Virus record (IMG/VR): IMGVR_UViG_3300007754_000852
Length of the DNA: 64,000 bases
From: a virus
Lineage: Duplodnaviria; Caudoviricetes
Reading direction: 5' to 3' (one strand)
Of this stretch, positions 7,395 to 61,936 are shown one piece after another (position 1 is the stretch's first letter; each line of letters starts with the position of its first letter). The notes beneath the pieces were generated by a model. It was given only the letters and a program-made list of their open reading frames with translations, had not been told where the DNA came from and searched no databases. Made by a program: the position numbers and the translations under genes.

Positions 7395-7405
7395 CTGTCA
7401 CCTCC

Positions 7406-8191: not shown

Positions 8192-8197
8192 GTTATT

Positions 8198-8226: not shown

Positions 8227-8243
8227 GAAAAGCCAGATTGAGC

Positions 8244-9715: not shown

Positions 9716-9716
9716 A

Positions 9717-9932: not shown

Positions 9933-10264
9933 TCTCTATTTCTCCAACAGGTCTCACTCACGTGGATCTTTTGCATGAGATCCTCACGACCGAACTTCCG
10001 CTGACGAGAGAAGAATCTCTTTCCAACTGACACGTCAGGATCATTTGGCCTCGCACTGCCGATCGGAAACACATCATCATCACTCAGATTCCACACGTCG
10101 CCGCCGATGAGAACCATGAACTCAGACTCGTCAGATCGTGTAGGTTTGTGAAGTGGTCTGATCTCAACGATCACGCCCACATCTTCCTTGTCATCCGTGT
10201 GATTCCACGCTGCAACCATGTCACCAACCTGGTACATCACATCACCTTCTTGATATTTTGTCAT
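9929..10264 (-). CDS. MKxGDLV-family small protein
   Basis: MYQVGDMV...GVIVEI. Confidence 0.7.
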   Translation of the reverse strand: MTKYQEGDVMYQVGDMVAAWNHTDDKEDVGVIVEIRPLHKPTRSDESEFMVLIGGDVWNLSDDDVFPIGSARPNDPDVSVGKRFFSRQRKFGREDLMQKIHVSETCWRNRE

Positions 10265-30888: not shown

Positions 30889-31302
30889 TTATTTTACCCA
30901 CACAATCATTGAATCAGCTATAGCGGGATCATCACCAAATTCTGCGTCTTGCTCTTTTGCCCATGAAATAGCCTTAAGTTCGTCTCGTTCGCGATGGCCA
31001 TCAAACATAGCAGCAAGAACATCTCCCCTTAGGCCAGGAAAGTTGACAGAGTCTGCCAAGGCTTCATATGCACTTTCAGGTGTAACATTAAACTTAGCAC
31101 CCTGATCAATCACTGACTGCCAATCACCGCCCTCTAAGGCACTTTTCATCGTTCCATGCTTAACTGTATTATGTCTGCTAGGGAGGGCTGCATGAACAAG
31201 TCGAGCTGCCGCCTCAAGCTTATCATCACCGGCTTGTTCAAATAGATGTCTTTCTAATTCTTCTCTAATGACCTGTCGAAGCTGGCTTTTTGTAATTCGC
31301 AT
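30889..31302 (-). CDS. Phage protein with MRITKSQLRQVIREE N-terminal motif
   Basis: Motif typical of large-phage head-associated proteins; ATATTTA upstream. Confidence 0.75.
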   Translation of the reverse strand: MRITKSQLRQVIREELERHLFEQAGDDKLEAAARLVHAALPSRHNTVKHGTMKSALEGGDWQSVIDQGAKFNVTPESAYEALADSVNFPGLRGDVLAAMFDGHRERDELKAISWAKEQDAEFGDDPAIADSMIVWVK

Positions 31303-34362: not shown

Positions 34363-34746
34363 TTAGATCACAATCGGCTTTCCATTATATAAGACCTTCT
34401 TATTGTTTAGCGTCAAAACTGTTACAATCTTAACGCCAGGCAGGCCCTTTATTAACTTTCCTATAGATTTTAGATTTTTTAAATCGCTTCCCGCTCTCGG
34501 TAAAAATTTAACGTACACCTCAAGAATCGTATTTTTATCTCCTGCTCTCTGAACAGGTTCCTTTTGTCCAACAACAGCAACCGTTGGTAGAACCCTGATT
34601 CTTGTAAGTGTGTCAGGAACGTGAGCGTCACTAACCATTGTCAGTCGACAAGTTATGTTCACAAGATCAGACTTTAATCTAAGACCAGCAGACTGCTCGC
34701 TTAAAATCATCTTAACAATGCTTTTTAATAGATGGTTTTCTGACAT
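34363..34746 (-). CDS. Phage protein with 'LLKSIVKMILSE' N-terminal motif
   Basis: Motif plus ATACCTA upstream. Confidence 0.65.
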   Translation of the reverse strand: MSENHLLKSIVKMILSEQSAGLRLKSDLVNITCRLTMVSDAHVPDTLTRIRVLPTVAVVGQKEPVQRAGDKNTILEVYVKFLPRAGSDLKNLKSIGKLIKGLPGVKIVTVLTLNNKKVLYNGKPIVI

Positions 34747-34803: not shown

Positions 34804-36715
<1,912 letters not shown>

Positions 36716-38122: not shown

Positions 38123-38887
38123 CTAAATGCTACCTTCTAATCCCAGTGTAACCCTGGCATCATTAAAAATCCCTTTAATAGCTGCAGCCTCACCGGGAAA
38201 ATCCTCTGTCATATCTAGGAACGAAGACTCCCAAGACGCAATCAGAAGGGTAGAAATTGCAGGAATCACATTTGTAACAATAATATGTCGAAGAGAATCG
38301 ATCTGGTCGACATCTAGCTTTGATAAAATTTCTCCAATTATTCTTTCAGCATCTGATTCAGACTTCGCCATCTCGTTGAGTTCATTAACTATCTCGCTCA
38401 CAGTTCCGTCGGAGATGCGTGACAGCATAGATGTTATCTGTTCAACATCCTGACTAAGAGCAGGAATAAATCTTCCAAGATTCCCTTCCTCTATTGTTTC
38501 AATATCATCACCAATTTTACCTCCGAGCACCTCACTAACTCTTGGAAAGTGATCACCGAATAGCGAGCCAGACTTCTGAAAGATGTCATTAAACATATCA
38601 ATAAGACTTTTTGTAATAAAGTCATCTTCAAGACCGATTGTATTCTTGATCTTTTCATACGTCTCTGGTCCATAGACGCCTAAGAGACCTATGATTCCTC
38701 CAGCTCTGCTAATAATTGAGCTCGGTATGAATCGTCCAAGGCCGCTGGTTTGGACCTCTCCAAACATCTCAAAAAAGCTATCATTTCTATTTGTCTGTCG
38801 TTGGGCTCCGAGAGTGAAGCCTATATCACCCATTATTTCACTTATTACCCTAGAAAGTCTCACATTGTCATATTTTTCTGATGTCAC
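38123..38887 (-). CDS. Hypothetical protein
   Basis: 254-aa helical ORF with repeated GRFIP. Confidence 0.7.
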   Translation of the reverse strand: MTSEKYDNVRLSRVISEIMGDIGFTLGAQRQTNRNDSFFEMFGEVQTSGLGRFIPSSIISRAGGIIGLLGVYGPETYEKIKNTIGLEDDFITKSLIDMFNDIFQKSGSLFGDHFPRVSEVLGGKIGDDIETIEEGNLGRFIPALSQDVEQITSMLSRISDGTVSEIVNELNEMAKSESDAERIIGEILSKLDVDQIDSLRHIIVTNVIPAISTLLIASWESSFLDMTEDFPGEAAAIKGIFNDARVTLGLEGSI

Positions 38888-39146
38888 CGAATAACTCCCT
38901 TCTTTCTGCTAGTGTTCTTAGCTTTAGGTCAACCCCTGTTAGATCCTTATAATAACTAATCAGATATATCTCAAAGTCATTGAGCCACTGCTCCTTTGTC
39001 TTTTGATCCCTTCGTGAAAAATTCTTTCTTAAGTGAGATGGTATTCCAAGCATTATCTGTTTTTTTATCGTAACCCAGTCATCACAGTCACCGGCATAGC
39101 TTGCAACAAACTCGACCTGCTCTCTTATTCTATCATTAATTTGCAC
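38868..39146 (-). CDS. Hypothetical protein
   Basis: Tiling ORF. Confidence 0.6.
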   Translation of the reverse strand: MQINDRIREQVEFVASYAGDCDDWVTIKKQIMLGIPSHLRKNFSRRDQKTKEQWLNDFEIYLISYYKDLTGVDLKLRTLAERRELFGDIRKI

Positions 39147-42100
39147 TTACAGCCTTCTCGTACACAACATATCTTCCCTGCGTTGTTCTCTTAACAAATA
39201 GCCTCTCTTTAGGAGTAAACGAAAGCCTTCCCTTGTGATACCAGATAATTCCCTCAACATCCTTCAATGCTGTGTCTCTGGCGTCTTGAGACAAGACATC
39301 TAAAAATCTCTCAGCCGTCTCTATTACGTCGCCGGTATCATCCTTTATAGAGAATTGACTTACAACATCACGTGCAAATGACTTTAAGGCCACTGAACCG
39401 ATATCACTAAGGTCGCTGTGATAAAGGCCCAGGGACATCAATCTCTTGTAAAGCCTTCCGTCTAAAACCTTTTTTCCCTTTGCTGATCCTAGCTTTATTC
39501 CATTTGACTTTTTTGCTGCTTTAACCTCCCAGTTTAATCCGCCTATTGTAACATCAAATGGAGCTGTGCCGACTGAAACACTGGCATCGTTAAATAAAAA
39601 TGGAACAATCAATTCACCGGCACCTGTTTGACTTCCTCCTCTTCTTGTCGATCTATACTCAGCAAGAGGTAGAAGCTCCTCAGGAACTATAACTCTCTCG
39701 CCGGGTGTAGCTGAAAAGAGAGCGCTGTTTATATTGCCGCGGAGTTGTGACAGGATTTCCATTGTAACTGTTTGTAGACTTTTTGGTATGGAGTTTTTCA
39801 TCACATTTCTCACCCTTTCAGCATTTGTATCATCCAGCATTAGTAGAAACGATTCAAATCCAGACTCAGGCGTAAACTTATCAATCTTTAGATCGTCTCT
39901 AATATATTTTATAACAGAGAGCACCTCTAGGTCTGACATGTCAAATGCGTCATCTCCTAGTTTAATAATTGCTTCTTTGATGAGTGATCTCACCTTTGAC
40001 TCAGACAAAGCTGACGACATCGACTGATTGACATAACTAACAGCCCTTTCAGACTCCTCAGCCGGCAGGTATCCAGGAAGATATTCCTCAAATTCATCTA
40101 ACGCCTGCAACAGTATTTCATCATTAGACTTTGACATGTGATCGACTAGCTCTTCAAATGAGTCAATTTTAAACTTATCAATGCCGCTCAAGCCTATCAG
40201 CGGAAGATACTCATCTGGATCTCTGATCCTCTTAACCTCCTCACCGTTTATATTTTCTGTATATCCTCCTGGCCATCTTAATGTCACCTTTACGACATCG
40301 TCAGGCGTTGTTCTGCTTCTTCCCGTGATGTTTGCAAGAAGAGATAGCATCAGATTTCTATACACACCCTTTACCTTTCCCTTATGTCCGCCCCTTAACT
40401 CCCACCATGTATCACCAGCATGTTCAGGTCTCTCAGAGACAAGATCTATTTGAAATAGCTCATCTTGCAGAGGAGCACTACTGTCATCAGAATCAGGATC
40501 TCTAAGCATTACACTCACCATGCTTCCTCCGACAACAATGTTAGAAACCCCTGGCACCAGCTCTTTCTGCAGGAACGGTGAACTACGAAGCATTGCCTCT
40601 AGTGTTTCCTTTACAGGATCATCTTTCCTCTTTTTCTTTTTTCTCTGCTGCCTTAGCTCTTCTACATCGCTAGAATATTTGTCAATCATGTCATCTGTAA
40701 TGACTGCCAGCAAGTCTATATCACCCAAGATGTCTGCATCTGTTCCCGTGCTTCCAAGAAGGCTATTTCCAGACTCACTTTTCTCTATGTTGAGATCAAT
40801 TCCAAGAGGATCTAAGACGTTCTTTTTTAACGATGAGATAAGTCTGTTTGCCTGGTCCCTAGATATCTTTTCCTGTGATGTGACAACAACCTTTTTCTTC
40901 TTTCCGTCGGCATCAATTATCGATCTCTTGAAGGCCTTTCCTCCTTCAGACAAGATCTTTTTAAATATCTTTAAAGCTTCTGATAGCGCCTCTTCATCAG
41001 AGTCAGACATGTTTACATCTTCAGGTTCATCAATAAAAAGAACTTCACCCCTAGACGGATATCTAAACAGCGTTACAAGCCTATGGACCGGTGTAAACAT
41101 TCCTGTTAACTTAACAGATATATCTCTACCCTCTTTTCCTGGGAGCCTGAGGACGACACCCTCAACAGCCTTTTTAAACATAGACATCTGTTCAACTCGT
41201 GAAATCGACGTATCTAGCTTTGTTGCCCAGGCTGTGTCAACGATGTCGCTTATCTCACCACTTTCAACATTCCTTACATGTATGGTGCTAGACTGTAACG
41301 CACTTTGTATTCTATCAACCTCGCTTGCGAGATCAGCTGTAACACCGTCATTTGTCGCCAAGGTAAATTCTAGCGTCTCAAAGAAATAGTATCCTAATTT
41401 TTGAATAATTTTTTCAAGATCAACAATTGCAGCAACAACGTGTGCTGTTGCCATCTTATCAATTTTTTGAAATACCTTCCAGTGAACAGAATCCATTTCT
41501 CGACTTGAAATTCTTTTTTCTATAAACTTTTCAGAGCCTACGTGAAATTTATCTAAAAGTCGATGAACTGCCCTGGTTCGTATGTCATCAGGCATGCTAT
41601 CTAGCTCAGGAGCATAGTGACTTAGATAGTCTTTCATCACAAGCGTTGCATACTCACCTACTGTCTTGGGTGGGTGATCAAATCTTTTTAAAAGTGAATC
41701 AATTTCACCTTTGAGCTCATTTATCTGGCCTATTATCTCTGATGCGACCTGCTTTGTCTGCTCTAGTTTAGGAACTGTACCGACAGACCACGATCTGTCA
41801 GAATTATCCTGTATCTCAATATCATCATTCATAAAGAGGTCATTGTATATATCAACATCTATGTCGATATCTGGATATGGAGATGAAGGTCTTATAAATC
41901 TAAAGTGATTCTCAGTATAGGGAATCGTGTTGGGGTTTATTGGTGTGAGTATCTGACCCTCTACAACAACCTTACCATTTAAAAATAACTGTCTTACTTT
42001 GTTTATGTCTAGCTTTTTTACATATTCATCTAAGACATCATAGGCTGAGGCAAATGCATCTTTTGTCTTTTCTCCCCACGTCTGAATGTTTCTTATGTCA

Positions 42101-43233
42101 TCTCTTCCCTTTCCGCCTTTTTCAAGAGTAGAAACTCTTGGACCTTTTCCGTACTGTCGTATTTCGCCATCGTCTAAAACTGTAAATGTGAAATTTTGAC
42201 CATCCATCTTTTCCTCGATGTGATCAATTCTTCCGCTAAGAACATCCTCTATTAGCTGTTTCAGATTATCAAACGTAAGATTCATATCTTCAGTTAGGCC
42301 CGGGATGTGACCTTCTGGTCTCGATGTTGCCTCTCTAATCGATTTCATCGCAGTAAATCTAGATGCTGCCCTTAGAATCGTTGAGCTGCTTATAGCTGAT
42401 GATAAACGTGACTCACTGACATTTTCATCACTGATAATTATCTTGACAATCTCGTCTTTTTCAGCATCGCTTAAAACACCCGGAAGATATCTCTTAAATG
42501 ACTCGATGTCACCAGAGCCAATGAACCCTCGAACGTCAGTTCCCCTAACATTGATCATCTCCTCAGATGCGTCTGGATGATAATCTTTCAATAGGTTTAC
42601 GAGGTCCGATACATTAGACATGCCTGATTTAAATGATATCTTTCCTTTGTCAATTAGCTCATACACCTTTTCTCCGATGACTGCGTCACCTCTTTCAGCC
42701 CTTTTTTTCATTCCTAACAAAAAGGCATATGAGTTTATCTCATCGTCTCCTGCATACACGGTTATGCTATCTACTGCAGATAGATCTATGTCACCCTCAG
42801 GACTGCTATGTTTTGTCGTGAGATTTCCAACTGCAAGCGCCGGGTTTCTTGACTGTCCTGCCTCGTCTTTAGCTCTCTTTCTTTCTTCATCTGTTAGATG
42901 GGCGTATGCGAACCTGTCAAGAATATTGTGAATATTATTGATTGGAGACGTGTGCTTTGCAGAAATCACATCAAGCTTGTCAGGATATCTATCCTGTAAT
43001 GCTTTTTCATACACAGCAAATACAGCGTCCTGGAGAGGTTCAGTATATAGCCTGCCTGTATCTCCAAATGTTCTAAACTTTGTTTTTAAAGGCTTTCCTT
43101 TTTTATTTAGCTTTTGCTTTTGAATCCCAAAAAAAGAAAGAACCTTATCATTCTCACCTAAAGCAAGAAGCAATTTTGAAAAGTGACCCGTGTGAAACGG
43201 TTTAAATCCACCACCATAGAGACCTAATTTCAT
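39136..43233 (-). CDS. 1365-aa multidomain protein: HxGH nucleotidyltransferase + KxDG ligase-like domain + Pol-beta NTase + PD-(D/E)xK nuclease
   Basis: GGFKPFHTGH (aa 8-17); EEKMDGQN (aa ~340); LGSTG...GDIDL...QIDL (aa ~825-900); GAGE...FDV...WEVKA (aa ~1200-1240). Confidence 0.75.
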   Translation of the reverse strand: MKLGLYGGGFKPFHTGHFSKLLLALGENDKVLSFFGIQKQKLNKKGKPLKTKFRTFGDTGRLYTEPLQDAVFAVYEKALQDRYPDKLDVISAKHTSPINNIHNILDRFAYAHLTDEERKRAKDEAGQSRNPALAVGNLTTKHSSPEGDIDLSAVDSITVYAGDDEINSYAFLLGMKKRAERGDAVIGEKVYELIDKGKISFKSGMSNVSDLVNLLKDYHPDASEEMINVRGTDVRGFIGSGDIESFKRYLPGVLSDAEKDEIVKIIISDENVSESRLSSAISSSTILRAASRFTAMKSIREATSRPEGHIPGLTEDMNLTFDNLKQLIEDVLSGRIDHIEEKMDGQNFTFTVLDDGEIRQYGKGPRVSTLEKGGKGRDDIRNIQTWGEKTKDAFASAYDVLDEYVKKLDINKVRQLFLNGKVVVEGQILTPINPNTIPYTENHFRFIRPSSPYPDIDIDVDIYNDLFMNDDIEIQDNSDRSWSVGTVPKLEQTKQVASEIIGQINELKGEIDSLLKRFDHPPKTVGEYATLVMKDYLSHYAPELDSMPDDIRTRAVHRLLDKFHVGSEKFIEKRISSREMDSVHWKVFQKIDKMATAHVVAAIVDLEKIIQKLGYYFFETLEFTLATNDGVTADLASEVDRIQSALQSSTIHVRNVESGEISDIVDTAWATKLDTSISRVEQMSMFKKAVEGVVLRLPGKEGRDISVKLTGMFTPVHRLVTLFRYPSRGEVLFIDEPEDVNMSDSDEEALSEALKIFKKILSEGGKAFKRSIIDADGKKKKVVVTSQEKISRDQANRLISSLKKNVLDPLGIDLNIEKSESGNSLLGSTGTDADILGDIDLLAVITDDMIDKYSSDVEELRQQRKKKKRKDDPVKETLEAMLRSSPFLQKELVPGVSNIVVGGSMVSVMLRDPDSDDSSAPLQDELFQIDLVSERPEHAGDTWWELRGGHKGKVKGVYRNLMLSLLANITGRSRTTPDDVVKVTLRWPGGYTENINGEEVKRIRDPDEYLPLIGLSGIDKFKIDSFEELVDHMSKSNDEILLQALDEFEEYLPGYLPAEESERAVSYVNQSMSSALSESKVRSLIKEAIIKLGDDAFDMSDLEVLSVIKYIRDDLKIDKFTPESGFESFLLMLDDTNAERVRNVMKNSIPKSLQTVTMEILSQLRGNINSALFSATPGERVIVPEELLPLAEYRSTRRGGSQTGAGELIVPFLFNDASVSVGTAPFDVTIGGLNWEVKAAKKSNGIKLGSAKGKKVLDGRLYKRLMSLGLYHSDLSDIGSVALKSFARDVVSQFSIKDDTGDVIETAERFLDVLSQDARDTALKDVEGIIWYHKGRLSFTPKERLFVKRTTQGRYVVYEKAVSAN

Positions 43234-43874
43234 TTATTCCTTCCGTCCTGTGATCTGTTTATCGTTGAATAAATATGTTCAATGACACCTGAAAAATCAT
43301 GAACATGCACAGCGATGTGAGACCTAATCATATTTCCGCTTACATGACTATCACACCACACATTGTCATCTCCACACTTTTTAACATTTAGCATCGCTAT
43401 TTCATCAATTGAAACAGGTGTATAGTTCCATAAGTCTGAGCAGACATTCACCCTGCCACCTCGAACCCTTTCTCCCTTGTGGATGTGTCCGTGAATTAAT
43501 ACGTCAAATCTTTCAAAGAGAGGCTCAGGAAGGGGGTGATGCTGGACCAGGGCATTTTTTCCACACGGCATATCATATTCTATAGATCGATGATATTCAT
43601 CAAACCCTGCTTCGATCATTCTTCTTTTAGACTGATCATGGTTTCCTTTTATAAGGATCTTATATCCATTTAATCTGTCTATTATACCTTTTGGATCGTC
43701 ACACCCTCTAAGAAATGCATCTCCTACAAGAAAAACCCTATCATCGTCTGTTATAACACTGTTCCAGTTGTCAATTAACGAATCATTCATCTGATTAACG
43801 CTGTCGTATGGACGATCACAGTACTTTATGATATTCCTATGGCTAAAGTGCGTGTCTGCTGTAAAGAAATCCAC
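43230..43874 (-). CDS. Calcineurin-like metallophosphoesterase
   Basis: ADTHFSH, VGD, KGNHD, HHP, HGHIH. Confidence 0.92.
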   Translation of the reverse strand: MDFFTADTHFSHRNIIKYCDRPYDSVNQMNDSLIDNWNSVITDDDRVFLVGDAFLRGCDDPKGIIDRLNGYKILIKGNHDQSKRRMIEAGFDEYHRSIEYDMPCGKNALVQHHPLPEPLFERFDVLIHGHIHKGERVRGGRVNVCSDLWNYTPVSIDEIAMLNVKKCGDDNVWCDSHVSGNMIRSHIAVHVHDFSGVIEHIYSTINRSQDGRNK

Positions 43875-45190
43875 TATTGCTTTCCATTCATGCTAAAGAT
43901 ATCCCCTACGATGCTTAGAACACTATCATTTAATCTTTCAAGTTGTTTATATTTTTTATCATCTATTCCAAGAGAAAGCTTTTTATCAATGTTCTTTCTT
44001 AAGCCGTCTTTATACAGCACAAGAATTTCATCAAGCATCTCATTAGAAGATGATATCACATCATTTTCAGCAAGTGTCAGTGCAAGACCCTTTATTCCAA
44101 GAGATAGACTTCTGATTGTGATATCTTTAGGGTCAACACCGGGATATTGTGTCAATAATTCATTTTCTGTAAACTCATCACCAATAAATTCCCTTGCAAT
44201 ATCTCGTAAAAATGTTTTGATATTCTTGCTAACCAAGACCAAAGATGTATCTTTTCTCTGTCTAAACGGAACTATCTCACCGTCTCTTACCTTTGCAAGA
44301 ACGCCTCTGTCTCCTATTGACATGTTGAAATAGCTTCCAAGTGCTGTATAGAGATTTCCTATCGTATATCCCTTCTTCCCTTTTTCAGGAATCCATCTCC
44401 ACGGCATCCATCCCGACTCATCTTGAGATGAATCGTCCTCTTTTACATAGAGCGGAAATGTAACAATCGTATCTGCTTGAACGTGATCACCGCTTGGCAG
44501 TCTCAGTATGAGCAAAAGAGCTGAATCTGGGTTTTTATCTGCTCCATGAAGAGTTGCTGCAGTGTTAACATATTTTTCAATCTCAACAGACTGGTTTAAA
44601 AAATCAATCAATGAAGAGACATACTTCTTCTTTGTCAGGTTTTCTGCTTTCCTTATCTCATCAGGTGATGCACCAGACTCGACACCAACAGGAAATGACA
44701 CTGATACGTCTATGTCACCATACTCTGCATCGGGATCGTCAACAAGATGATAGTAAGATGATCCCACAGTAGTCACCACCTTGACGGCTTCCATTCCTTC
44801 AGACTCAAGATGCTTATTCCACATGTCAATGACAATCCTATAGACGTCAAATGTCATTGAAACTATCTCTGGATCGATCTTTACATGAGATGTGAGATGA
44901 GGGGCCTTGAGACCACCCTCCTTCAGAATTCCTGATTTTATCCCTTCTCTCTCTGCTACTTTCTTTAGATATCTTAAGGCACCTATGGCATCTTGAATTC
45001 TATGCATCTCTTTTCTATGCTTCAGCCTATTAGGGCCTTTTCTCAAAGAGTTTTTTACGAGAATTAATCTTGATATCATAGACTCTAAGTCATCTATGTG
45101 AACTCTAGACCCATAGTCTGCTGCAGTGCCATCTGACATCGACACAAGAGACTCTGCCACTTGCCTCATTACGTCACTATAGTCACCCAT
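43874..45190 (-). CDS. Pol-beta-superfamily nucleotidyltransferase with N-terminal helical extension
   Basis: TVGSS...GDIDVS...VQADT catalytic triad. Confidence 0.75.
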   Translation of the reverse strand: MGDYSDVMRQVAESLVSMSDGTAADYGSRVHIDDLESMISRLILVKNSLRKGPNRLKHRKEMHRIQDAIGALRYLKKVAEREGIKSGILKEGGLKAPHLTSHVKIDPEIVSMTFDVYRIVIDMWNKHLESEGMEAVKVVTTVGSSYYHLVDDPDAEYGDIDVSVSFPVGVESGASPDEIRKAENLTKKKYVSSLIDFLNQSVEIEKYVNTAATLHGADKNPDSALLLILRLPSGDHVQADTIVTFPLYVKEDDSSQDESGWMPWRWIPEKGKKGYTIGNLYTALGSYFNMSIGDRGVLAKVRDGEIVPFRQRKDTSLVLVSKNIKTFLRDIAREFIGDEFTENELLTQYPGVDPKDITIRSLSLGIKGLALTLAENDVISSSNEMLDEILVLYKDGLRKNIDKKLSLGIDDKKYKQLERLNDSVLSIVGDIFSMNGKQ

Positions 45191-45232
45191 TAGAGAACGC
45201 CTCCAACGATAAATATGTTTTAATATTAGTGT

Positions 45233-45484: not shown

Positions 45485-46165
45485 TTATAGAGACATCAAG
45501 CTTCTTACTTTCTCTCTTATCTCATTTACCCTCTGTTCTCCAACTCGAATCGGAGGAGATGTATCTTCTGGGCCGTGCTTCTCTTCTTCTTCCTCTTCAT
45601 CATCTGTATGATCTATCCCTGCTGTATCTTTCTCTGGCTCTTGAACAATGTCTTCTTCTCCAGCAGACATTTTTATATTTTCTGGGGGCTCACTAGGATC
45701 TTGCGCATCTGCACCGGTCACTGATCCTGTCAATATCCCAGCAAATGATCTCAAGAAAATTAGAAGGACCTGCCTCTCTTGATCATCTAGTCTGTCAAAA
45801 TATGTTCTCATCTGAGCACTTATTTGACTATCATCAACAGACCTTCCGCTTCGTAGAGTCTTGATTGCATCTGCAACACTATCAAGAGATACCTCTATGT
45901 CATTTTCATCGCTTTCAGGCTGCGTAGGCTCATTATCGTCTTCTGATTTTGTAGACAGCGATAGATCATCATCTACGTCACCTGATTGACTGTCTTGTTC
46001 ATCAACCTTATATACATCTTTATCAACCTTAAGCATGTCAGAGATTCTACCTTGCATAGGATCAACATTTGACACTGCAGACGTCGCCTCTTTTACACTT
46101 TCTTCAGCTAAAATCTTTAAAAACATCTCAACATCATCGGTGCTCTTAAGTCTTACTGTGCTCAT
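45485..46165 (-). CDS. Acidic putative head-associated protein
   Basis: LKILAEES; Asp/Glu-rich linkers. Confidence 0.7.
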   Translation of the reverse strand: MSTVRLKSTDDVEMFLKILAEESVKEATSAVSNVDPMQGRISDMLKVDKDVYKVDEQDSQSGDVDDDLSLSTKSEDDNEPTQPESDENDIEVSLDSVADAIKTLRSGRSVDDSQISAQMRTYFDRLDDQERQVLLIFLRSFAGILTGSVTGADAQDPSEPPENIKMSAGEEDIVQEPEKDTAGIDHTDDEEEEEEKHGPEDTSPPIRVGEQRVNEIREKVRSLMSL

Positions 46166-46770: not shown

Positions 46771-47125
46771 AAAATCGTGATATTTTCTGATCCTGTTCTG
46801 TTACACCGTTTACATCTTTGGTAAATGTCTCAATTCTAACTAACAGGCCATCGACGATGATCATAATATCGTGATGTATTCTTTTTTGCTCACCTAGTAC
46901 CTCATTAATAAAGTATCTTGCTCTGTCATAGTTATCAAACTGAAAGCCTTTGACTAGCCTCTCTGGCTCATGTAAAACCTGCCATGATGAAATAGAAGCC
47001 TTTATCGGAGAATCACTAGATGGCATTCCAACAATTGACTCAACAATTCTCTCGCTTCTCTTGCGATCTCCTCGACACTCTATAAATTTTTTATTATCAA
47101 TCAGGTCTAAAAGCGTTCTCATCAC
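46730..47125 (-). CDS. Pterin-4a-carbinolamine dehydratase-like protein
   Basis: WQV...LVKGFQFDNY...FINEV...HHD...VRIETFTKDVNGVTEQD. Confidence 0.8.
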   Translation of the reverse strand: MMRTLLDLIDNKKFIECRGDRKRSERIVESIVGMPSSDSPIKASISSWQVLHEPERLVKGFQFDNYDRARYFINEVLGEQKRIHHDIMIIVDGLLVRIETFTKDVNGVTEQDQKISRFCDEIYDDTRYISL

Positions 47126-48927
47126 TACCTTCTAAACTTTGAAACACGCTTTGGAGCTGTAGCGAGAGCCTTCTCTAACATCCTATATGAAGCCTCTTCA
47201 TCAAAAACAATATTTTCAATATCATTGATTATTCCTATCATATAGTCATCATATTTTTCTGATGAATAAATTTCATCATCGCTAGATCGCCTAAATACAC
47301 CATCGGCATTGAGCTGTTGAATAAATGCACGGACTCCACCCTCTTTTGCGCCTTTTGTCTTGTCTGCATCAAGGACGTCTTTTGCAACCTGTTGTATAAA
47401 TGCAACAACAGACTCAAATGCATTTCTTTTATCAATATATGACTGTGACTCAACATCAACGTCTCTTGTGTTGATGGCAGTGTTTTGAACAACAAGATAT
47501 CCACCAAGTCCATCAGGATCATCAGGATCATCAGAGTCAACATCTGGAAAAATGGAATTGTCTGCATCAAGAAGATCATTGACAATTGTCATCTCAGCGT
47601 CATCATCATATCCAACTGACTCGACATAATCTCTTAAAACAGACCTAAACACATTATAAATTGCTGCAACTATCTGATCTTGCGCCTTTAATTTCAGCGG
47701 ATCATATGTTGATGGAATCTTCTTTGTCGTCGGAAAGCCCAGCGTAGCTGCATCTTCTGGATCGAATCCAAAAACCTTTAAATCATCATATAGAATGTTC
47801 TGAATATTGTTTGTCTTTAATCCCGTCTCATCAGATATTCTATCCTTTAATGCTTGCATTGCTTTTTGTGACATTTGCAATCCAATTCCCTCATCCTCAA
47901 GAATCTCATCTCTCAGCTGCCTTCTTATCTTTGCTGCCTCATCTGGGTTTATATTTTCATCGGCTGCGATCTGATCAACGGTATTTTCTGGCTCTCTTGC
48001 TTCTTGTTCTGTCTCATCAGCAAGAGCTTTGAGTCTTTTTGCTCCTTGCACATCACCCTGGGCCGCGATCTCATCTGCCCTGGCCCTAAGAGCACTAGCC
48101 AAGTTAACACCTGTTAGACCTGTTTCCTTTCTAATCTTTGCAAGCTCTTTGGTTGATGATCTTGATTCTGCCTCTTCTTTTCCTGCTGCAACATATCCAG
48201 CAACCTCTTCAGGGGTGACATCTCTGCTTCCAAGAACTGATGATAGATATTCTAAGACCTTTCCCCTAACCTCTTTCTTTTCATCATCAGAGAGGTCTTT
48301 CATCATCTGCTTAATTCTTCGATTATTTCTCATCTCTCCGATTGCCTTAAGATGAACTAATCTTGTGTCAGTTCCTCTAACCACAGAGTGACCAGTCTCA
48401 GAATCTATATCAACATTGGCAAATAGCGCAGGATTTTTCATAAAATAATCAACAATAGCATCAGTTGCAACCTGAACATCATCTTCTATGCTAAGCGGTC
48501 TGTCAAGATCATCATCTAGATCATCAAGCATTCCCTCAACTATCTGCCTAAACGCTTTCTCATGAATCGTCGTTTGATCATCATCACTTTTTCCATAGAC
48601 TTTTTCATCGTGCTTGTCAATGGACAGGTCTAGAAGCTGATGTAATCGTCTATAGAAAAATTCTATTTGATCAGCAGGAACCTCATTAGATATCACAGAT
48701 GACGCCCTCGATAGCTCCTCCTGATTTGATGGAATGTACTCAGGATCATCAACAGGAGGAATGTCAGCAGATAGCTGGACAGCCATCTGGGGGGTTGGTT
48801 CTATTGGCTCTTCATCACTCTTCGCTGGGATGTCGCTGATATTGCTAGACTTCGGACTTCTATCTTCAGATAGAATTCTTCCTATTGCATCTCTCAGGGC
48901 ACGCTTATTTACTATGACACGCATCAA
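47125..48927 (-). CDS. 600-aa acidic phage protein with 'ALRDAIGRILSE' N-terminal motif
   Basis: Long ORF; PQMAVQLSADIPPVDDPEYIP; ATACCTA upstream. Confidence 0.75.
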   Translation of the reverse strand: MMRVIVNKRALRDAIGRILSEDRSPKSSNISDIPAKSDEEPIEPTPQMAVQLSADIPPVDDPEYIPSNQEELSRASSVISNEVPADQIEFFYRRLHQLLDLSIDKHDEKVYGKSDDDQTTIHEKAFRQIVEGMLDDLDDDLDRPLSIEDDVQVATDAIVDYFMKNPALFANVDIDSETGHSVVRGTDTRLVHLKAIGEMRNNRRIKQMMKDLSDDEKKEVRGKVLEYLSSVLGSRDVTPEEVAGYVAAGKEEAESRSSTKELAKIRKETGLTGVNLASALRARADEIAAQGDVQGAKRLKALADETEQEAREPENTVDQIAADENINPDEAAKIRRQLRDEILEDEGIGLQMSQKAMQALKDRISDETGLKTNNIQNILYDDLKVFGFDPEDAATLGFPTTKKIPSTYDPLKLKAQDQIVAAIYNVFRSVLRDYVESVGYDDDAEMTIVNDLLDADNSIFPDVDSDDPDDPDGLGGYLVVQNTAINTRDVDVESQSYIDKRNAFESVVAFIQQVAKDVLDADKTKGAKEGGVRAFIQQLNADGVFRRSSDDEIYSSEKYDDYMIGIINDIENIVFDEEASYRMLEKALATAPKRVSKFRR

Positions 48928-50612: not shown

Positions 50613-50934
50613 GAGGATTATCTGCAGCTATTATTTCAAATAATGACTCTGCATCAGTCCTTGATAACTTCTTAATGATTTTATCACGTTTTTTCTGCGA
50701 GAGCTCTTCCATCATTCTCATCATGTCAGGAGACTCAGATGCTATTCTCTGTGATATTTCTTCAAATATCTCTTGCATCGATAATCTATTTTTAAAACAA
50801 GCTATTCTTACGGCACTATGTGTTTCTCGAGTTGTTGTGAAGTGAATTGACTTCTTTGTTTCAAAATCAACATAGTCTTTGCTCACACCGCTCCTCCACC
50901 ACCGCCGCCAAGGCCTCCCGTGCCCCCAGCCCAT
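50596..50934 (-). CDS. Possible ribbon-helix-helix protein (true start likely GTG SKDY)
   Basis: KSIHFTTTRETHSAVRIAC...LSMQEIFEE. Confidence 0.55.
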   Translation of the reverse strand: MGWGHGRPWRRWWRSGVSKDYVDFETKKSIHFTTTRETHSAVRIACFKNRLSMQEIFEEISQRIASESPDMMRMMEELSQKKRDKIIKKLSRTDAESLFEIIAADNPLDKKD

Positions 50935-51482
50935 GCACCTGTAGCAAACGGAGCTACAGGATGATCGGCATCGTCGTCAATGCTGATGTCAAACTGTGTG
51001 TGTAGTATTTCCTTCATCTCACTCACATGATCATTGTCGTAATGATCTGCAAGAAAACTTGATGCTCGATTCACGATCGCTGCCTTTATGTCAAGAAGAA
51101 CCTCATTATTCATTACAAGTCTTGCAACTCTCTTTGTAAAGGCGTCTATGTCAATAGGGGGCTTAGGCGGCTCTAGAGACTCATCACTCTCTTCGCTATC
51201 TGTCTCACTGTCATCATCTACCTCCTCTTCATCATCAGCAGCACCCTCTTCACCCTCTTCAGCATCCTGTTCTAAAAATAGCTTTCTAAGAGATGTTGAC
51301 GACATTGACTCCATCATCATATCATCATCAGATGACATTGAATCCTTTTCAAACTTTATTAAAAATGCATCAATCTGATCATCAACAGAGTCAGCTGATC
51401 TTTTTTCATCACTACTGTCAGGTGACATCATCTCATCCATCTGCTCAAGTATTAGTCTTCTAAGTGTCTTTTTGTCAATCAT
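50883..51482 (-). CDS. Acidic phage protein with 'TLRRLILEQ' motif
   Basis: Motif, acidic linker, Gly-rich tail. Confidence 0.7.
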   Translation of the reverse strand: MIDKKTLRRLILEQMDEMMSPDSSDEKRSADSVDDQIDAFLIKFEKDSMSSDDDMMMESMSSTSLRKLFLEQDAEEGEEGAADDEEEVDDDSETDSEESDESLEPPKPPIDIDAFTKRVARLVMNNEVLLDIKAAIVNRASSFLADHYDNDHVSEMKEILHTQFDISIDDDADHPVAPFATGAWAGGTGGLGGGGGGAV

Positions 51483-57430: not shown

Positions 57431-58334
57431 TTATGTGCGCAGAGTTTAAATTCATTCTAATTCTCGCAGATGTACAATTTACACCAATTCTTTTCCAACA
57501 TTCCGACGCAAGATAGTAAAGAAACCTTAAGTCGTGTTCAAACAGCCTGACAACATCGCATGATCTTATCACACAATGAAAATCCATTATTTTATTTCTC
57601 TGACTAACTTGAATAAATGATATACAAGAATCATCAGTGTATACAAACCTTCTAGAAAAAATATCTTCCTTTCTCAGATACTCATTTTCTCCTGACATCT
57701 CTGATTCTATCTTTTTAAGAAGTGCTAAGAATATCTTTATGTAGTATTCTGACTCTGGCTCAAATTCTAAACTTTTTGGTGTTGCTTCCCTAAATTCTCC
57801 GTCGTCATGCAGTGTCAGCTGGAGCGGGAAGACCTCACTCCTCTCTGTCTGTCTTACAACCTTAGCTACAATACCTGCAACATCTTTGAGCTGAAATTTT
57901 TCATGTGACGTTAATTCATCTATAACATGATCAGCTATATCATTTATTGGTGAGCTTTCAGATGTTATTCTTACAGCTAACGGATGATCATTTAAACGCT
58001 TAAACTCTTTTTTAAACGACCTATGAACAGACTTTAAAGATCTAGCGTCGTGGATCTCATCTCCTCTCTTTTCAAATCTCTTCTTTATTACCCTAAACGG
58101 CAGATCGATGATAACATACCTGTTATTTAAATTGTACATCTCTCTGTGTAGATGGTCTTCCATATAGTCAATAGACCTACCATACATCTCTGAAAACACC
58201 TTTCTAGATAGCTGTGATCTATCCATGAGGTGCCACCGATACCCAGTTTTTTTATGAATCTCCCGAATCAGAGACGTCTTTCCTGAACAGTCTGGACCCT
58301 CTACAAATATTGTATGTGCTGGAAATGATAACAC
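57423..58334 (-). CDS. dNMP kinase fused to a minimal thymidylate-synthase/dCMP-hydroxymethylase-fold domain
   Basis: N-term EGPDCSGKT, DRS; C-term SRR...SCISFIQ...RSCDVVRLFEHD...SAHI. Confidence 0.8.
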   Translation of the reverse strand: MLSFPAHTIFVEGPDCSGKTSLIREIHKKTGYRWHLMDRSQLSRKVFSEMYGRSIDYMEDHLHREMYNLNNRYVIIDLPFRVIKKRFEKRGDEIHDARSLKSVHRSFKKEFKRLNDHPLAVRITSESSPINDIADHVIDELTSHEKFQLKDVAGIVAKVVRQTERSEVFPLQLTLHDDGEFREATPKSLEFEPESEYYIKIFLALLKKIESEMSGENEYLRKEDIFSRRFVYTDDSCISFIQVSQRNKIMDFHCVIRSCDVVRLFEHDLRFLYYLASECWKRIGVNCTSARIRMNLNSAHIIE

Positions 58335-61300: not shown

Positions 61301-61936
61301 ATCTGGAAATTCCTGGAATATGTGACCTGATGCTCGGCCTCCCACACATGCTGTAGATACAATAAGCCCATCAGAATTTTCCTTTAGCATCTTGAAGTCA
61401 ATCCTTGGAAATCTATAAAACCCTTCCTTATATGACATCTTAATAAGCCTAAAAAGATTTTGGAGACCTTTGAAATTTTTCGCTATAACAACAAGATGAT
61501 ATCTCCTCTTCCACTCTGGGTATTCACCTCTATCTTTCTTTGTCTCATTTTCATTTTCAACAATGAGACCCTCACTTTCGTCTCCGTCATCTACAGAGAT
61601 CTTTCTTTTGGTCTCTCTCTCAAGCCTAACCCTCTCACGATGCTTATTGTAGTCATTTCTCCATTCTGATAGATCATCAACGAAATAGCACTCACATCCG
61701 TATATGTGCCTATACTGCTTCCCTTTTGTCTTTAGCTTCTTTGCATAGTTATGCGCATGAGCTGCTGAATTCATGTGACCGTGATTTGTTAAGGCTAGAG
61801 AATTCATTCCGTTCTCAAGAATGAAATCGATGTGCTCATTAGGATAGCCTAGACCGTCATAGACACTTGATCCATCATGTGCATGTAATCCGACAAATCG
61901 TCTGGGCGGAGAAATTTTATTAATTGACATTAGCAT
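58334..61936 (-). CDS. dnaE: DNA polymerase III alpha subunit (family C)
   Basis: PHP LHAH...TNHGH...TADSH; GRGSGAGS; PDIDTD; GRHAGG; KFDFLGL; FSGYGFNASH. Confidence 0.96.
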   Translation of the reverse strand: MLMSINKISPPRRFVGLHAHDGSSVYDGLGYPNEHIDFILENGMNSLALTNHGHMNSAAHAHNYAKKLKTKGKQYRHIYGCECYFVDDLSEWRNDYNKHRERVRLERETKRKISVDDGDESEGLIVENENETKKDRGEYPEWKRRYHLVVIAKNFKGLQNLFRLIKMSYKEGFYRFPRIDFKMLKENSDGLIVSTACVGGRASGHIFQEFPDKQFDELSPGLVDDPYVLKSVMRKLENMTDRFVDAVGRENFFLELQFNDLVAQHLTNRCLLELSDKTGIPLISTADSHYCRPEMWEAREMYKILGRMGSRDDEMPKLPEKSELKCELYPKNAQQMWESFKKGYDQYDFYRGHENTVKDSIGRTYGIAWDMCDEVWFDGNSAKLPDFTTPQRSAFGQLVDQVKEGMIKSDLHEKPEYLVRVKEELSVIKELGFENYFLTLTKVFDKAKNQTLIGPGRGSGAGSLVNYVLGITHVDPIKYNLLFERFLGLHKASWPDIDTDVGDRDVLIDVSRELFGDDSVIPVSNFNTLKLKSLIKDVSKFYGIPFDEVNKLTNPLEREVMPRAMGDHEEKSTYVLTHEDCMKYSEPYQKFMKKYPKVSEHVQTLFMELRSIGRHAGGVLVCPDLETHMPIVKVRGELQTPWSEGMNFRHLEENGFLKFDFLGLATLKMVEDTIRLVLRKKGVENPSFDQINKFFDDHLNSRYHDMDDQRVWEYVYHGGRFVQIFQFVNSGARKFCQNAKPRSIDDLATITAIYRPGPLAAKVDKKYVKTKQEVDAGKKISYDHPVIEEVTGKTYSYLCFQEQFMMLAQKLAGFDKGESDKMRKTLVKKSLDSNAAKVQERIDLRKKFVDGSVNLSGMDREKAEKLYETIEYFSGYGFNASHAVSYAVDSYYSAWLHTYYEKEWLATCLQTWNGSPKFGKIMAEIKSLGYKFLPPDINTSSDVWVYSDDREGFVPPLTAIKGVGKSAVQEIMMRRPFTCIDQMLFTDEGTWKPSKMNKTCFDSLCKVEAFGSLDEMKSGKILNHRQLHEIIVGNYDLLKKGRHGMTKTAVKRMIKDTGRVPVFINEKILESHDLSDWSRSEKIEMCVDLMAGADEDLIFPPQLMKKINESGVKSVVSMSGSEKTVAWFCIQSIEERTTKNGKVFYRMKVCDNNSESAWLRVWTKFKTVPGLYTIWLAEVSSSESWGCSTSSYKMKQVNVA

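What the first reader, a model, noticed from the sequence alone, without database searches (positions are those of the whole stretch)
39136..45190. Four-enzyme nucleotidyl-transfer 'polyprotein' with phosphoesterase and second NTase: candidate virion-delivered system
One 1365-aa ORF chains an HxGH (cytidylyltransferase-fold) domain, a KxDG ligase/capping-type domain, a Pol-beta NTase (GS...DxD...D) and a PD-(D/E)xK nuclease. Domain junctions coincide with I/L-x-E motifs: KSIRE (~aa 301), KKILSE-GG (~763) and ALSE...LIKE (~1078-1087). The neighbouring 438-aa Pol-beta NTase also starts its catalytic domain after ILKE-GG (aa 91). A metallophosphoesterase lies between them, and ATATTTA motifs precede both the big gene and the second NTase. 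Inference: a prohead-protease-processed polyprotein whose pieces heal, tail or ligate nucleic-acid ends, or make or destroy nucleotide signals, after injection. I know of no characterised function for this arrangement.
Basis: partly seen in the sequence, partly recalled or inferred. Interest (0 to 1): 0.8.

Follow-up and report, generated by a model that had tools for sequence, protein, structure and literature searches.

The report
Phage repair polyprotein with protease-site linkers
A marine T4-like phage fuses an NMNAT-like transferase, an RNA-ligase-like enzyme, a family-X-polymerase-like enzyme and a probable nuclease into one protein, and the conserved Leu/Ile-x-Glu junction motifs suggest that the head-maturation protease cuts it up inside the capsid for delivery with the DNA.

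Summary
The three overlapping genes exist: 1365, 214 and 438 aa. Three of the four domain calls are confirmed by fold and invariant motifs:
- an NMNAT/PPAT-like HxGH domain;
- an Rnl-type ligase;
- a Pol-beta NTase, which is specifically a minimal family-X polymerase palm plus thumb.

The PD-(D/E)xK nuclease rests on motifs only. The 438-aa neighbour is a paralogue of the PolX-like domain. The ATATTTA motifs occur no more often than chance.

The module is conserved in about 20 marine phage contigs. In many of them the big gene is split into separate genes at exactly the same junctions. All three linkers carry a conserved [LIVM]-x-E.

The PolX-like family is large (843 clusters) and shows an all-or-none rule. 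Of 119 representatives, 80 have [LIVMF]-x-E directly before Gly-Gly, and 25 start directly at Met-Gly-Gly. The same x-E|GG motif also precedes the unrelated ligase fold in a wider phage family.

Relatives, and all three complete cultured phages with a family member, encode a T4-type prohead protease, which cuts after Glu. A distant PolX-like member in phage PA5oct is annotated as found in virions by mass spectrometry.

Cleavage, packaging, substrates (RNA or DNA) and activities remain untested. I found no published description. Interest is high.

The parts
42424..43233 (-). P0001 domain 1 (aa 1-270): HxGH nucleotidyltransferase, NMN/NaMN-adenylyltransferase- and PPAT-like
42316..42423 (-). Linker 1 (aa 271-306): conserved helix ILRAAxRF followed by I-x-E301, a predicted cleavage site
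   Evidence: pLDDT is under 50 for 270-306. The hydrophobic-x-E is conserved in 20 of 20. In split relatives the same segment is the N-terminal leader MAIL..RF..x-E of the ligase gene.
41029..42315 (-). P0001 domain 2 (aa 307-735): Rnl-type covalent nucleotidyltransferase (ligase) with a helical insert of about 200 aa
40945..41028 (-). Linker 2 (aa 736-763): two conserved sites, L-S-E752 and L-S-E763, the latter directly before G764-G765
   Evidence: E763 is invariant and G764/G765 nearly so. Conserved in 21 of 21 and 20 of 21. pLDDT is under 50 for 752-764.
40009..40944 (-). P0001 domain 3 (aa 764-1075): minimal family-X-polymerase-like nucleotidyltransferase (palm plus thumb, no 8-kDa or HhH domains)
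39949..40008 (-). Linker 3 (aa 1076-1095): amphipathic helix VRSLIKE ending in I-K-E1087 (also L-S-E1078)
   Evidence: Every family member ends this helix with hydrophobic-hydrophobic-x-E, 21 of 22. Stand-alone PolX-like proteins end with the same LR..IR..L helix.
39139..39948 (-). P0001 domain 4 (aa 1096-1365): putative PD-(D/E)xK nuclease
   Evidence: GELIVP 1206-1211, then D1227 .. E1236-x-K1238, nearly invariant across the family. The AF2 model is not confident here (pLDDT under 50). The nearest named Atlas clusters are restriction endonucleases at only 0.82-0.83. No PDB sequence hit. Motif-level only.
43230..43874 (-). P0002: calcineurin-like metallophosphoesterase, 214 aa, with no leader
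   Evidence: phrog_547 6.3e-42. Pfam Metallophos 20.9 bits against a cut-off of 21.5. PDB 1xm7 (aq_1665) 8.9e-11. Motifs DTHFSH, GDAF, GNHD and HGHIH are present. Found as a neighbour in 12 related loci.
43874..44926 (-). P0003 catalytic part (aa 92-438): second PolX-like nucleotidyltransferase, paralogue of domain 3, beginning G92-G93
   Evidence: hhalign of the PolX-domain profile against the P0003 family gives probability 95.6, E 1.1e-8. The alignment covers x-E-GG, GS, GDxD, QxD, W and KG. Invariant residues: G92 G93 G143 S144 G158 D159 D161 Q238 D240.
44927..45190 (-). P0003 N-terminal region (aa 1-91): short leader MGDYSDVMRQVAE, then a basic helical domain of about 75 aa ending I-L-K-E91
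   Evidence: The leader is conserved in homologues. A GGAGG ribosome-binding site lies at 45200-45204. In relatives the N-domain is a separate gene of 93-102 aa that ends just after the L-x-E. Some homologues start M-GG and lack it.

Best explanation
This is the fused form of a conserved marine-phage module for processing polynucleotide ends.

Shown: P0001 chains four domains: an NMN/NaMN-adenylyltransferase-like HxGH domain, an RNA-ligase-type lysine nucleotidyltransferase, a minimal family-X-polymerase-like nucleotidyltransferase and a probable PD-(D/E)xK nuclease. It is co-transcribed with a metallophosphoesterase and a second PolX-like paralogue. The catalytic residues are intact and conserved. 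The domains are separate genes in many relatives.

Inferred function: together the enzymes trim (nuclease), clean (phosphoesterase), fill or tail (PolX-like) and seal (ligase) broken RNA or DNA ends. The HxGH domain either supplies or handles an adenylylated cofactor or intermediate.

Inferred maturation: the protein is a precursor. Each linker ends in [LIVM]-x-E, which is the specificity of T4-type (Peptidase_S77) prohead proteases. Cutting there would release the single enzymes and give the PolX-like parts the same Gly-Gly N-terminus that stand-alone genes get from Met-Gly-Gly. That protease acts only inside the assembled prohead. The pieces would therefore sit in the capsid and enter the next cell with the DNA, as T4 Alt and the internal proteins do.
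For: Folds and motifs:
- Ligase domain: RNA ligases are the top ligase hits in two independent searches, with K342, E425, E691-G692 and K708 invariant.
- P0003 is a paralogue of the PolX-like domain.
- The phosphoesterase motifs are intact.

Module:
- The order P3fam - MPE - big gene is conserved, inside a syntenic block of about 25 kb shared by about 18 loci.
- The big gene is split as HxGH | LIG-POLX-CT, or as HxGH | LIG | POLX, at the same junctions.

Processing:
- Hydrophobic-x-E is conserved at all three linkers, which the AF2 models leave at low confidence.
- Of 119 PolX-like cluster representatives aligned at the N-terminal boundary, 80 have [LIVMF]-x-E|GG and 25 start M|GG. Twelve more lack GG, several of them starting M-SG. 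Only 2 of the 107 that have GG fit neither form.
- The same [LIM]-x-E|GG precedes the unrelated ligase fold in about 50 HxGH-ligase proteins, which also carry 15-aa N-terminal leaders.
- Peptidase_S77 is present in 4 of 5 related contigs, in 4 of 5 MAGs that hold the family, and in 3 of 3 complete cultured phages with a family member.
- A gp23-type capsid protein is present in 4 of 5. Its propeptide ends QLL(R/K)E|S/G, and the small proteins encoded next to the protease read ..EIL(K/Q)E|G.
- S77-type proteases cut after Glu at short motifs. T4 targeting propeptides are 10-20 aa, and the enzyme Alt is packaged and cut at both ends (PMC5694885; PMC9026906).
- PA5oct EST35_0231 is a bona fide family member (82 bits to the family profile). 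It is annotated 'structural protein, ESI-MS/MS' (PMC7318152).
Against: - There is no direct evidence of cleavage, packaging or any activity.
- The window's own genome is not held, so its protease could not be checked.
- P0001 and its stand-alone HxGH relatives start directly at the Rossmann strand, without an N-terminal leader, so what would target them to the prohead is unknown.
- The phosphoesterase has no leader either.
- Many family members have leaders of only 4-6 aa, too short for a targeting signal.
- M-GG forms and PA5oct's M-SG form show that the enzyme can be made, and even be virion-associated, without any leader.
- Five fragmentary jumbo-phage contigs (14-75% complete) that carry short-leader members showed no Pfam-detectable S77.
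- The ligase looks like an RNA ligase, whereas PolX and PD-(D/E)xK enzymes usually act on DNA, so a single common substrate is not obvious.
- The nuclease fold is unconfirmed.
Confidence: 0.5

Rival explanations
1. The enzymes are the same, but they act in the cytoplasm and are not cleaved. P0001 is a Rosetta-stone fusion of enzymes that work as a complex during infection, for example tRNA/RNA repair against host anticodon nucleases or repair of phage DNA. The hydrophobic-x-E-GG motif and the LR..IR..L helices are structural N-caps, hinges or docking helices that hold the split versions together. They are not protease sites.
For: - Fission and fusion at domain borders is typical of enzymes that act together.
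- The amphipathic helix also sits at C-termini without a following Glu, as docking elements would.
- 4-6-aa 'leaders' look more like part of the domain than like propeptides.
- P0001 and the phosphoesterase lack N-terminal leaders.
- The module lies among non-structural genes such as GroEL, a sigma-like gene and DnaE.
- The same phage also encodes RtcB and tRNAs.
Against: - Glu at position -1 is present in 80 of 82 forms with any upstream residue, but is replaced by the initiator Met in 25 leaderless forms. No intermediate forms such as M-E-GG occur. That pattern fits a P1 residue, not a structural residue.
- The same motif precedes two unrelated folds.
- The linkers are of low confidence in the AF2 models.
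- A family member is in the PA5oct virion proteome.
Confidence: 0.3
2. The module is a counter-defence nucleotide-metabolism kit rather than an end-repair kit. The NMNAT-like domain would rebuild NAD+. The Pol-beta-fold NTases and the phosphoesterase would make, cap or destroy signalling nucleotides, against systems of the CBASS, Thoeris or Pycsar type.
For: - The closest structures to domain 1 are NMN/NaMN adenylyltransferases.
- Pol-beta-fold NTases include signal synthases, and phosphoesterases include signal-degrading enzymes (general knowledge).
Against: - The NTase is specifically PolX-like, including the thumb and the YRN and DP..L..LG elements. It is not cGAS/DncV- or MNT-like.
- The HxGH domain is tied to an RNA-ligase domain across a wide phage family.
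- A ligase and a nuclease have no role in this scheme.
Confidence: 0.08
3. The module serves the phage's own genome ends or replication intermediates. Possible roles are circularisation or end-joining after entry, sealing of packaged nicks, or terminal nucleotide addition. It would be a DNA-only PolX-ligase-nuclease-phosphoesterase pathway like LigD NHEJ or ASFV base-excision repair.
For: - The PolX fold, the PD-(D/E)xK motif and a weak similarity of the phosphoesterase to ligase-associated PdeM.
- Giant viruses pair PolX with AP endonuclease and ligase (one search lists such fusions).
Against: - The top ligase-domain matches are all RNA ligases, and no OB domain is present.
- The PdeM match is far below its cut-off (16.7 against 150 bits).
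- This rival overlaps with the best explanation and differs only in substrate.
Confidence: 0.1

Closest known systems
T4 Alt and internal proteins IPI-III (capsid-targeting leader, gp21 processing, injection)
   Same: The phage lineage has a T4-type head: Peptidase_S77 and gp23 are present in relatives. Short N-terminal leaders end in Leu/Ile-x-Glu. An enzyme is carried in the head. Alt is cut at both ends (PMC9026906).
   Different: Here several enzymes are chained in one 155-kDa precursor with internal sites. The big protein has no N-terminal leader. The cargo is a polymerase, a ligase, a nuclease and a transferase, not an ADP-ribosyltransferase or a restriction inhibitor. Cleavage and packaging are only inferred.
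Minimal family-X polymerases with partner ligases (ASFV Pol X plus ASFV ligase; giant-virus PolX fusions)
   Same: Palm plus thumb only, like ASFV Pol X. The three catalytic Asp residues and the GS loop are kept. A ligase and a nuclease are associated.
   Different: Sequence identity is about 11-15%. The family has its own signature (GGNxFKD N-terminus, KGxYRN). There is an extra C-terminal helical region. The partner ligase is RNA-ligase-like. The family is found only in phages: just 6 hits in 185,579 prokaryote species genomes, all on MAG contigs.
RNA repair systems: T4 Pnkp-Rnl1, bacterial Pnkp-Hen1, fungal Trl1
   Same: An Rnl-type ligase is combined with an end-healing phosphoesterase. 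In Clostridium Pnkp that phosphatase is also a calcineurin-type enzyme (own knowledge). Trl1, Rnl1 and Rnl2 are among the best ligase-domain matches.
   Different: The module has no polynucleotide kinase or methyltransferase. It adds HxGH, PolX-like and nuclease domains. The ligase has an insert of about 200 aa between motifs IIIa and IV.
Bacterial LigD (polymerase-phosphoesterase-ligase NHEJ enzyme)
   Same: One polypeptide combines a polymerase, an end-cleaning function and a ligase.
   Different: LigD uses an AEP-type polymerase, a different phosphoesterase fold and a DNA ligase with an OB domain (own knowledge). None of these is homologous to the parts here.
NadM/NadR/NadD NMN(NaMN) adenylyltransferases
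   Different: The domain carries large insertions (270 aa against about 170). It is always linked to a ligase domain in phages. Its substrate is unknown.
Pseudomonas phage PA5oct EST35_0231 (virion protein of unknown function)
   Same: It belongs to the same PolX-like family (profile score 82 bits over its full length). It is annotated as detected in virions by ESI-MS/MS. The phage encodes Peptidase_S77.
   Different: It is only distantly related. It starts M-SG without a leader. No ligase or HxGH partner lies nearby.

Membership tests
HxGH (cytidylyltransferase-like) nucleotidyltransferase superfamily | (H/T)xGH motif after the first strand | tested here: met
   GGFKPF-H14-T-G-H17-F; G8 G9 F10 K11 P12 F13 G16 H17 F18 are nearly invariant. 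Some relatives have TxGH.
HxGH (cytidylyltransferase-like) nucleotidyltransferase superfamily | Second signature motif (ISxTxxR type) | tested here: met
   R230-G231-T232-x-x-R235 are nearly invariant. The wider family has SAS(V/T)LR.
HxGH (cytidylyltransferase-like) nucleotidyltransferase superfamily | Rossmann-like alpha/beta fold of NMNAT/PPAT | tested here: met
HxGH (cytidylyltransferase-like) nucleotidyltransferase superfamily | NMN/NaMN as substrate | not testable with these tools
   This needs an enzyme assay.
ATP-dependent RNA ligases (covalent lysine nucleotidyltransferases) | Motif I KxDG with the catalytic Lys | tested here: met
   E341 K342 D344 G345 Q346 are invariant in the N-terminal alignment.
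ATP-dependent RNA ligases (covalent lysine nucleotidyltransferases) | Motifs III, IV (EG) and V (K) | tested here: met
   E425; E691-G692-x-V694; K708-x-T710-G711 are invariant or nearly so. Assigning them to the numbered motifs is by order and spacing, which is inference.
ATP-dependent RNA ligases (covalent lysine nucleotidyltransferases) | Nucleotidyltransferase fold closest to Rnl families | tested here: met
ATP-dependent RNA ligases (covalent lysine nucleotidyltransferases) | Pfam RNA_ligase (PF09414) at gathering score | tested here: not met
   20.6 bits against a cut-off of 27. 13 of 22 family members match below threshold.
Family X DNA polymerases | GS loop plus three catalytic Asp residues (DxD ... 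D) | tested here: met
   G827 S828 T829; G837 D838 x D840; Q928 x D930 are invariant.
Family X DNA polymerases | Palm and thumb (nucleotide-selection) subdomains | tested here: met
Family X DNA polymerases | 8-kDa dRP-lyase domain and HhH DNA-binding subdomain | tested here: not met
   The best Pol beta alignments begin at about residue 140 (a few lower rows reach back to 91-104). Only about 25 residues precede the palm. Minimal PolX enzymes such as ASFV Pol X also lack these parts.
Family X DNA polymerases | Templated DNA synthesis | not testable with these tools
   This needs primer-extension assays.
PD-(D/E)xK nucleases | Conserved D ... (D/E)xK on adjacent strands | tested here: met
   D1227, E1236 and K1238 are nearly invariant. 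An upstream GELIVP is found in the P0001 subtype.
PD-(D/E)xK nucleases | Restriction-endonuclease-like alpha-beta-beta-beta-alpha-beta fold | tested here: inconclusive
   The model has pLDDT under 50 for 1120-1365. The nearest named Atlas clusters, all restriction endonucleases, reach only 0.82-0.83. No PDB sequence match.
Calcineurin-like metallophosphoesterases | DxH, GD, GNH(D/E), H and GH metal-binding motifs | tested here: met
   DTHFSH, VGDAF, GNHDQ, QHHP and HGHIH in P0002. phrog_547 6e-42. Pfam 20.9 against 21.5 bits. PDB 1xm7 9e-11.
T4-type prohead-protease substrates (capsid-internal proteins) | A Peptidase_S77 prohead protease in the same genome | not testable with these tools
   The window's genome is not held. 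In relatives it is present: 4 of 5 contigs, 4 of 5 MAGs and 3 of 3 complete cultured phages. It was not found in 5 fragmentary contigs.
T4-type prohead-protease substrates (capsid-internal proteins) | Accessible Leu/Ile-x-Glu site(s) | tested here: met
   The motif is conserved in all three low-confidence linkers and before the GG of P0003.
T4-type prohead-protease substrates (capsid-internal proteins) | N-terminal targeting propeptide | tested here: inconclusive
   P0003 has a conserved leader ending V-A-E13. P0001 starts directly with the catalytic strand. In split relatives the ligase gene has a 13-25-aa leader.
T4-type prohead-protease substrates (capsid-internal proteins) | Presence of the processed protein in virions | not testable with these tools
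   The only indirect evidence is that the distant member PA5oct EST35_0231 is annotated from virion ESI-MS/MS.

The most novel reading that the evidence does not exclude
T4-like and jumbo phages carry a previously unrecognised class of capsid-internal enzymes. It comprises a PolX-like nucleotidyltransferase family of hundreds of clusters, together with RNA-ligase-like, NMNAT-like and nuclease partners. They are made as precursors or polyproteins and released by the prohead protease at Leu/Ile-x-Glu|Gly-Gly. This exposes a required Gly-Gly N-terminus. The enzymes are then injected with the genome and heal, fill and seal nucleic-acid ends before any phage gene is expressed. This would be the first virion-borne polymerase-ligase repair kit in a bacteriophage.
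Probability: 0.4. Interest if true: 0.85.

Novelty: new variant of a known kind. Interest (0 to 1): 0.72.

Why it matters
If this is right, phages of a large and abundant marine lineage deliver a ready-made toolkit of polymerase, ligase, nuclease and nucleotidyltransferase with their DNA. That would widen the known cargo of phage heads, which so far comprises ADP-ribosyltransferases, restriction inhibitors and RNA polymerases, to include nucleic-acid repair.

It would give a function to a PolX-like family of at least 843 sequence clusters that has none today. It would also show polyprotein processing by a prohead protease, which is unusual for tailed phages.

The rule 'x-E|GG with a leader, M-GG without one' is a sharp hypothesis that can be tested directly. 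The enzymes themselves could be of practical interest: a minimal PolX, and an RNA ligase with an NMNAT-like partner. Even if the cleavage idea fails, the conserved fission and fusion pattern defines a new multi-enzyme end-repair module.

Tried and rejected
- DNA similarity to known phages: none.
- PHROGs gave nothing for P0001 or P0003. Pfam gave only sub-threshold hits. NCBIfam gave nothing useful.
- BLASTP of P0003 against the PolX-like domain found nothing significant. Only the profile-profile comparison showed the homology.
- The C-terminal domain could not be resolved. The AF2 model is not confident there, the PDB profile search was empty, and Atlas gave weak leads only.
- ATATTTA and the T4 late-promoter box TATAAATA are both at or below chance in the window. 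Sigma-70-like promoters and terminators are also at chance.
- The own genome is not held, and the window's phage is not in IMG/VR.
- The first scan of prokaryote genomes with the close-subfamily pattern found nothing.
- S77 and gp23 were not detected in five fragmentary contigs that carry short-leader members. This is inconclusive.
- Leader-like N-terminal helices were tested for enrichment. In the window alone the enrichment is not significant: 8 against 7 and 3, or 4 against 1, 2 and 3. It is clearer in relatives (21 against 2, 6 and 3), but those genes are orthologues and not independent.
- [LIVM]xEGG occurs in two further window ORFs, which is within chance expectation.
- No RNA holder was listed among the sequencing runs.
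- Literature searches found no description of this architecture.
- A double-glycine bacteriocin-type leader was considered and rejected. GG is kept in leaderless forms, and the register of the hydrophobic positions differs.

Full report
**What is there.** The three genes exist as described and are packed as an operon:
- P0003, 43874-45190(-), 438 aa.
- P0002, 43230-43874(-), 214 aa.
- P0001, 39136-43233(-), 1365 aa.

Their ends overlap by 1 and 4 nt. A GGAGG lies 9 nt before the first ATG.

The window is part of a marine phage. It encodes GroEL, DnaK, a DnaE-type polymerase, RtcB, a DHH phosphoesterase and five tRNAs. The same DNA occurs in marine and seawater metagenomes, on a contig of about 205 kb. 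No genome is held for it.

**Domains.** Standard libraries see almost nothing. A family of 21 full-length homologues allowed alignments and two AF2 models.

- *Residues 1-270.* NMNAT/PPAT-type HxGH nucleotidyltransferase.
  - Both signature motifs are conserved: GGFKPFHTGHF and RGTxVR.
  - In a search that does not rely on Foldseek, the first sixteen matches are NMN/NaMN adenylyltransferases or PPAT.
- *Residues 307-735.* Lysine nucleotidyltransferase of the ligase type.
  - K342-x-DG, E425, E691-G692 and K708 are invariant.
  - A helical insert of about 200 aa is present.
  - The best structural matches are all RNA ligases (Pab1020, REL1, Trl1, T4 Rnl1 and Rnl2, NgrRnl), ahead of any DNA ligase.
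  - The scores are only middling, and Pfam RNA_ligase stays below its cut-off.
- *Residues 764-1075.* More than a generic Pol-beta NTase: they match the palm and thumb of Pol beta, lambda, mu and TdT.
  - The GS loop, DxD and third Asp are invariant.
  - The 8-kDa and HhH parts are missing, as in ASFV Pol X.
  - In the viral structure library the nearest neighbours are uncharacterised phage proteins, followed by giant-virus PolX.
- *Residues 1096-1365.* These keep D1227...E1236-x-K1238 across the family. The model is not confident there and nothing else confirms a nuclease fold.
- *P0002.* An intact calcineurin-type phosphoesterase.
- *P0003.* A paralogue of the PolX-like domain by profile-profile comparison: probability 95.6, E 1e-8, aligned from x-E-GG through GS, GDxD, QxD, W and KG.

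**Comparative anatomy.** In IMG/VR the order P0003-like, phosphoesterase, big gene is conserved. It sits in a syntenic block of about 25 kb shared by some 18 loci.

Some have HxGH | ligase-PolX-Cterm. Others have HxGH | ligase | PolX. The N-terminal 90 aa of P0003 is also a separate small gene in several loci.

A wider family of two-domain HxGH-ligase proteins exists in many phage contigs and in the cultured Microcystis phage Mel-JY01.

**The junction motif.** This is the main result.

- *Single sequence.* Leu/Ile-x-Glu near a junction means little, because P0001 has 26 such motifs.
- *Across the family.* The motif is fixed at all three linkers:
  - 20 of 20 at E301;
  - 20 of 21 at E752;
  - 21 of 21 at E763;
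  - 21 of 22 at the end of the linker-3 helix.

  These are segments that the AF2 models leave at low confidence.
- *All-or-none rule.* A profile search of 1.8 billion proteins found 843 PolX-like clusters. Of the 119 representatives aligned at their N-terminal border:
  - 80 read [LIVMF]-x-E directly before Gly-Gly, with leaders from 4 to several hundred residues;
  - 25 begin Met-Gly-Gly;
  - 12 lack Gly-Gly, several of these beginning Met-Ser-Gly;
  - only 2 of the 107 with Gly-Gly fit neither form.

  So the Glu is there whenever anything precedes the domain, and it is gone when nothing does. That is what one expects of the P1 residue of a cleavage site, and not of a structural residue.
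- *Same motif before a different fold.* [LIM]-x-E|GG also precedes the unrelated ligase fold in about 50 HxGH-ligase proteins. These also begin with a 15-aa leader of the type M..L..ES.L.E.
- *Leaders in split relatives.* The ligase gene starts with a 13-25-aa leader ending in hydrophobic-x-E.
- *A recurring helix.* An amphipathic LR..IR..L helix recurs at the N-termini of P0003-like proteins, at the C-termini of stand-alone HxGH and PolX-like proteins, and in linker 3.

**Which protease.** The evidence points to the T4-type prohead protease, Peptidase_S77.

- It is present in relatives of the window: 4 of 5 contigs, together with a gp23-type capsid protein in 4 of 5.
- Only 6 hits for the PolX-like family turned up in 185,579 prokaryote species genomes, all on MAG contigs. 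Four of the five MAGs tested also hold S77 genes. The control set gave 0 of 14.
- All three complete cultured phage genomes that hold a family member have it: Mel-JY01, PA5oct and Atu_ph07.
- In the relatives the capsid-protein propeptide ends QLL(R/K)E|S/G. The small proteins encoded next to the protease begin with a helix ending EIL(K/Q)E|G.
- Published work shows that this protease family cuts after Glu at short motifs, that T4 targeting propeptides are 10-20 residues long, and that the enzyme Alt is packaged, trimmed at both ends and injected (PMC5694885; PMC9026906).
- That T4 gp21 prefers Leu/Ile at P3, and that it acts only inside the assembled prohead, is established knowledge that I did not test.

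**Virion evidence.** One piece is indirect but experimental. PA5oct EST35_0231 starts M-SGNAF and matches the family profile over its full length (82 bits). It is annotated 'structural protein, ESI-MS/MS', from a study that linked 93 gene products to virions (PMC7318152).

**Caveats.**
- Nothing here shows cleavage or packaging.
- P0001 and the phosphoesterase have no N-terminal leader.
- Leaders of 4-6 residues are too short to be targeting signals.
- Leaderless forms exist, one of them in a virion.
- Five fragmentary contigs with short-leader members showed no detectable S77.
- My test for leader-like N-termini on neighbouring genes is only suggestive.
- The substrate is open. The ligase looks like an RNA ligase, whereas PolX-like and PD-(D/E)xK enzymes usually act on DNA.
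- The role of the NMNAT-like domain is unknown, although its linkage to the ligase is conserved across a wide phage family.

The most likely reading (about 0.5) is a kit for repairing polynucleotide ends, made as a precursor, cut by the prohead protease and carried in the capsid. The main rival (about 0.3) is the same kit acting uncleaved in the cytoplasm.

I found no published description of this architecture.

Noticed in passing
window 1-10000: The first 10 kb have 46-53% G+C against about 39% in the rest of the window. They encode an RtcB-type RNA ligase (1749-2966, phrog_1075 1.6e-142) and a second metallophosphoesterase (6218-6946). This could be a second RNA-repair island, an acquired segment or an assembly join.
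   Followed up: partly
window 47125-48927, 50883-51482, 45485-46165, 38123-38887, 34363-34746, 30889-31302 (all on the - strand): Several conserved neighbours of unknown function begin with amphipathic leaders ending in hydrophobic-hydrophobic-x-E, for example ..LRDAIGRILSE..LRRLILE and ..LRQVIREE. They resemble the leaders in the module. Enrichment at N-termini is not significant in the window but is clearer in relatives. These may be further capsid-internal proteins.
   Followed up: partly
window 44927-45139 (P0003 aa 18-88); L008 9702-10004, L021 9654-9935 and others: The basic helical N-domain of P0003 is a free-standing gene of 93-102 aa in several relatives. It is sometimes kept directly upstream of the HxGH gene even where the catalytic part and the phosphoesterase are absent. 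There is a weak Pfam hint to wHTH-Calcineurin_assc (E 0.012).
   Followed up: partly
window 45139-45190: The public protein call for P0003 (P0025, 421 aa) is 17 residues shorter at the N-terminus, which implies a start at Met18. The upstream 17 residues are conserved in homologues, and a GGAGG precedes the ATG at 45190. The database start is probably wrong, and it hides the leader.
   Followed up: yes
alignment A1, junction 1 (P0005-P0016): Fused relatives keep a Met at the junction (..MPIITDST..), where split relatives have the ligase gene's start (MAIL..). It is either a fossil start codon or a possible internal initiation site.
   Followed up: no
L029 9017-11227, L036, L044 and similar loci: Many proteins of the wider HxGH-ligase family carry a hydrophobic stretch that looks like a membrane helix (..AASVLPGGVIYF.LIKLL..), about 25 residues before the x-E|GG site.
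   Followed up: no
window 34804-36414, 62004-63869, 58334-61936: The phage encodes GroEL, a DnaK-type Hsp70 and a 1200-aa DnaE-like polymerase, while its relatives have a T4-type head. This is an unusual mix of replication and morphogenesis modules.
   Followed up: no
window 16989-17723 and 17997-18623: A trypsin-like peptidase (Trypsin_2, 6.7e-15) and a matrixin-like zincin (below Pfam's cut-off) are encoded 20 kb away. They are alternative candidate proteases, but neither is known to be Glu-specific.
   Followed up: no
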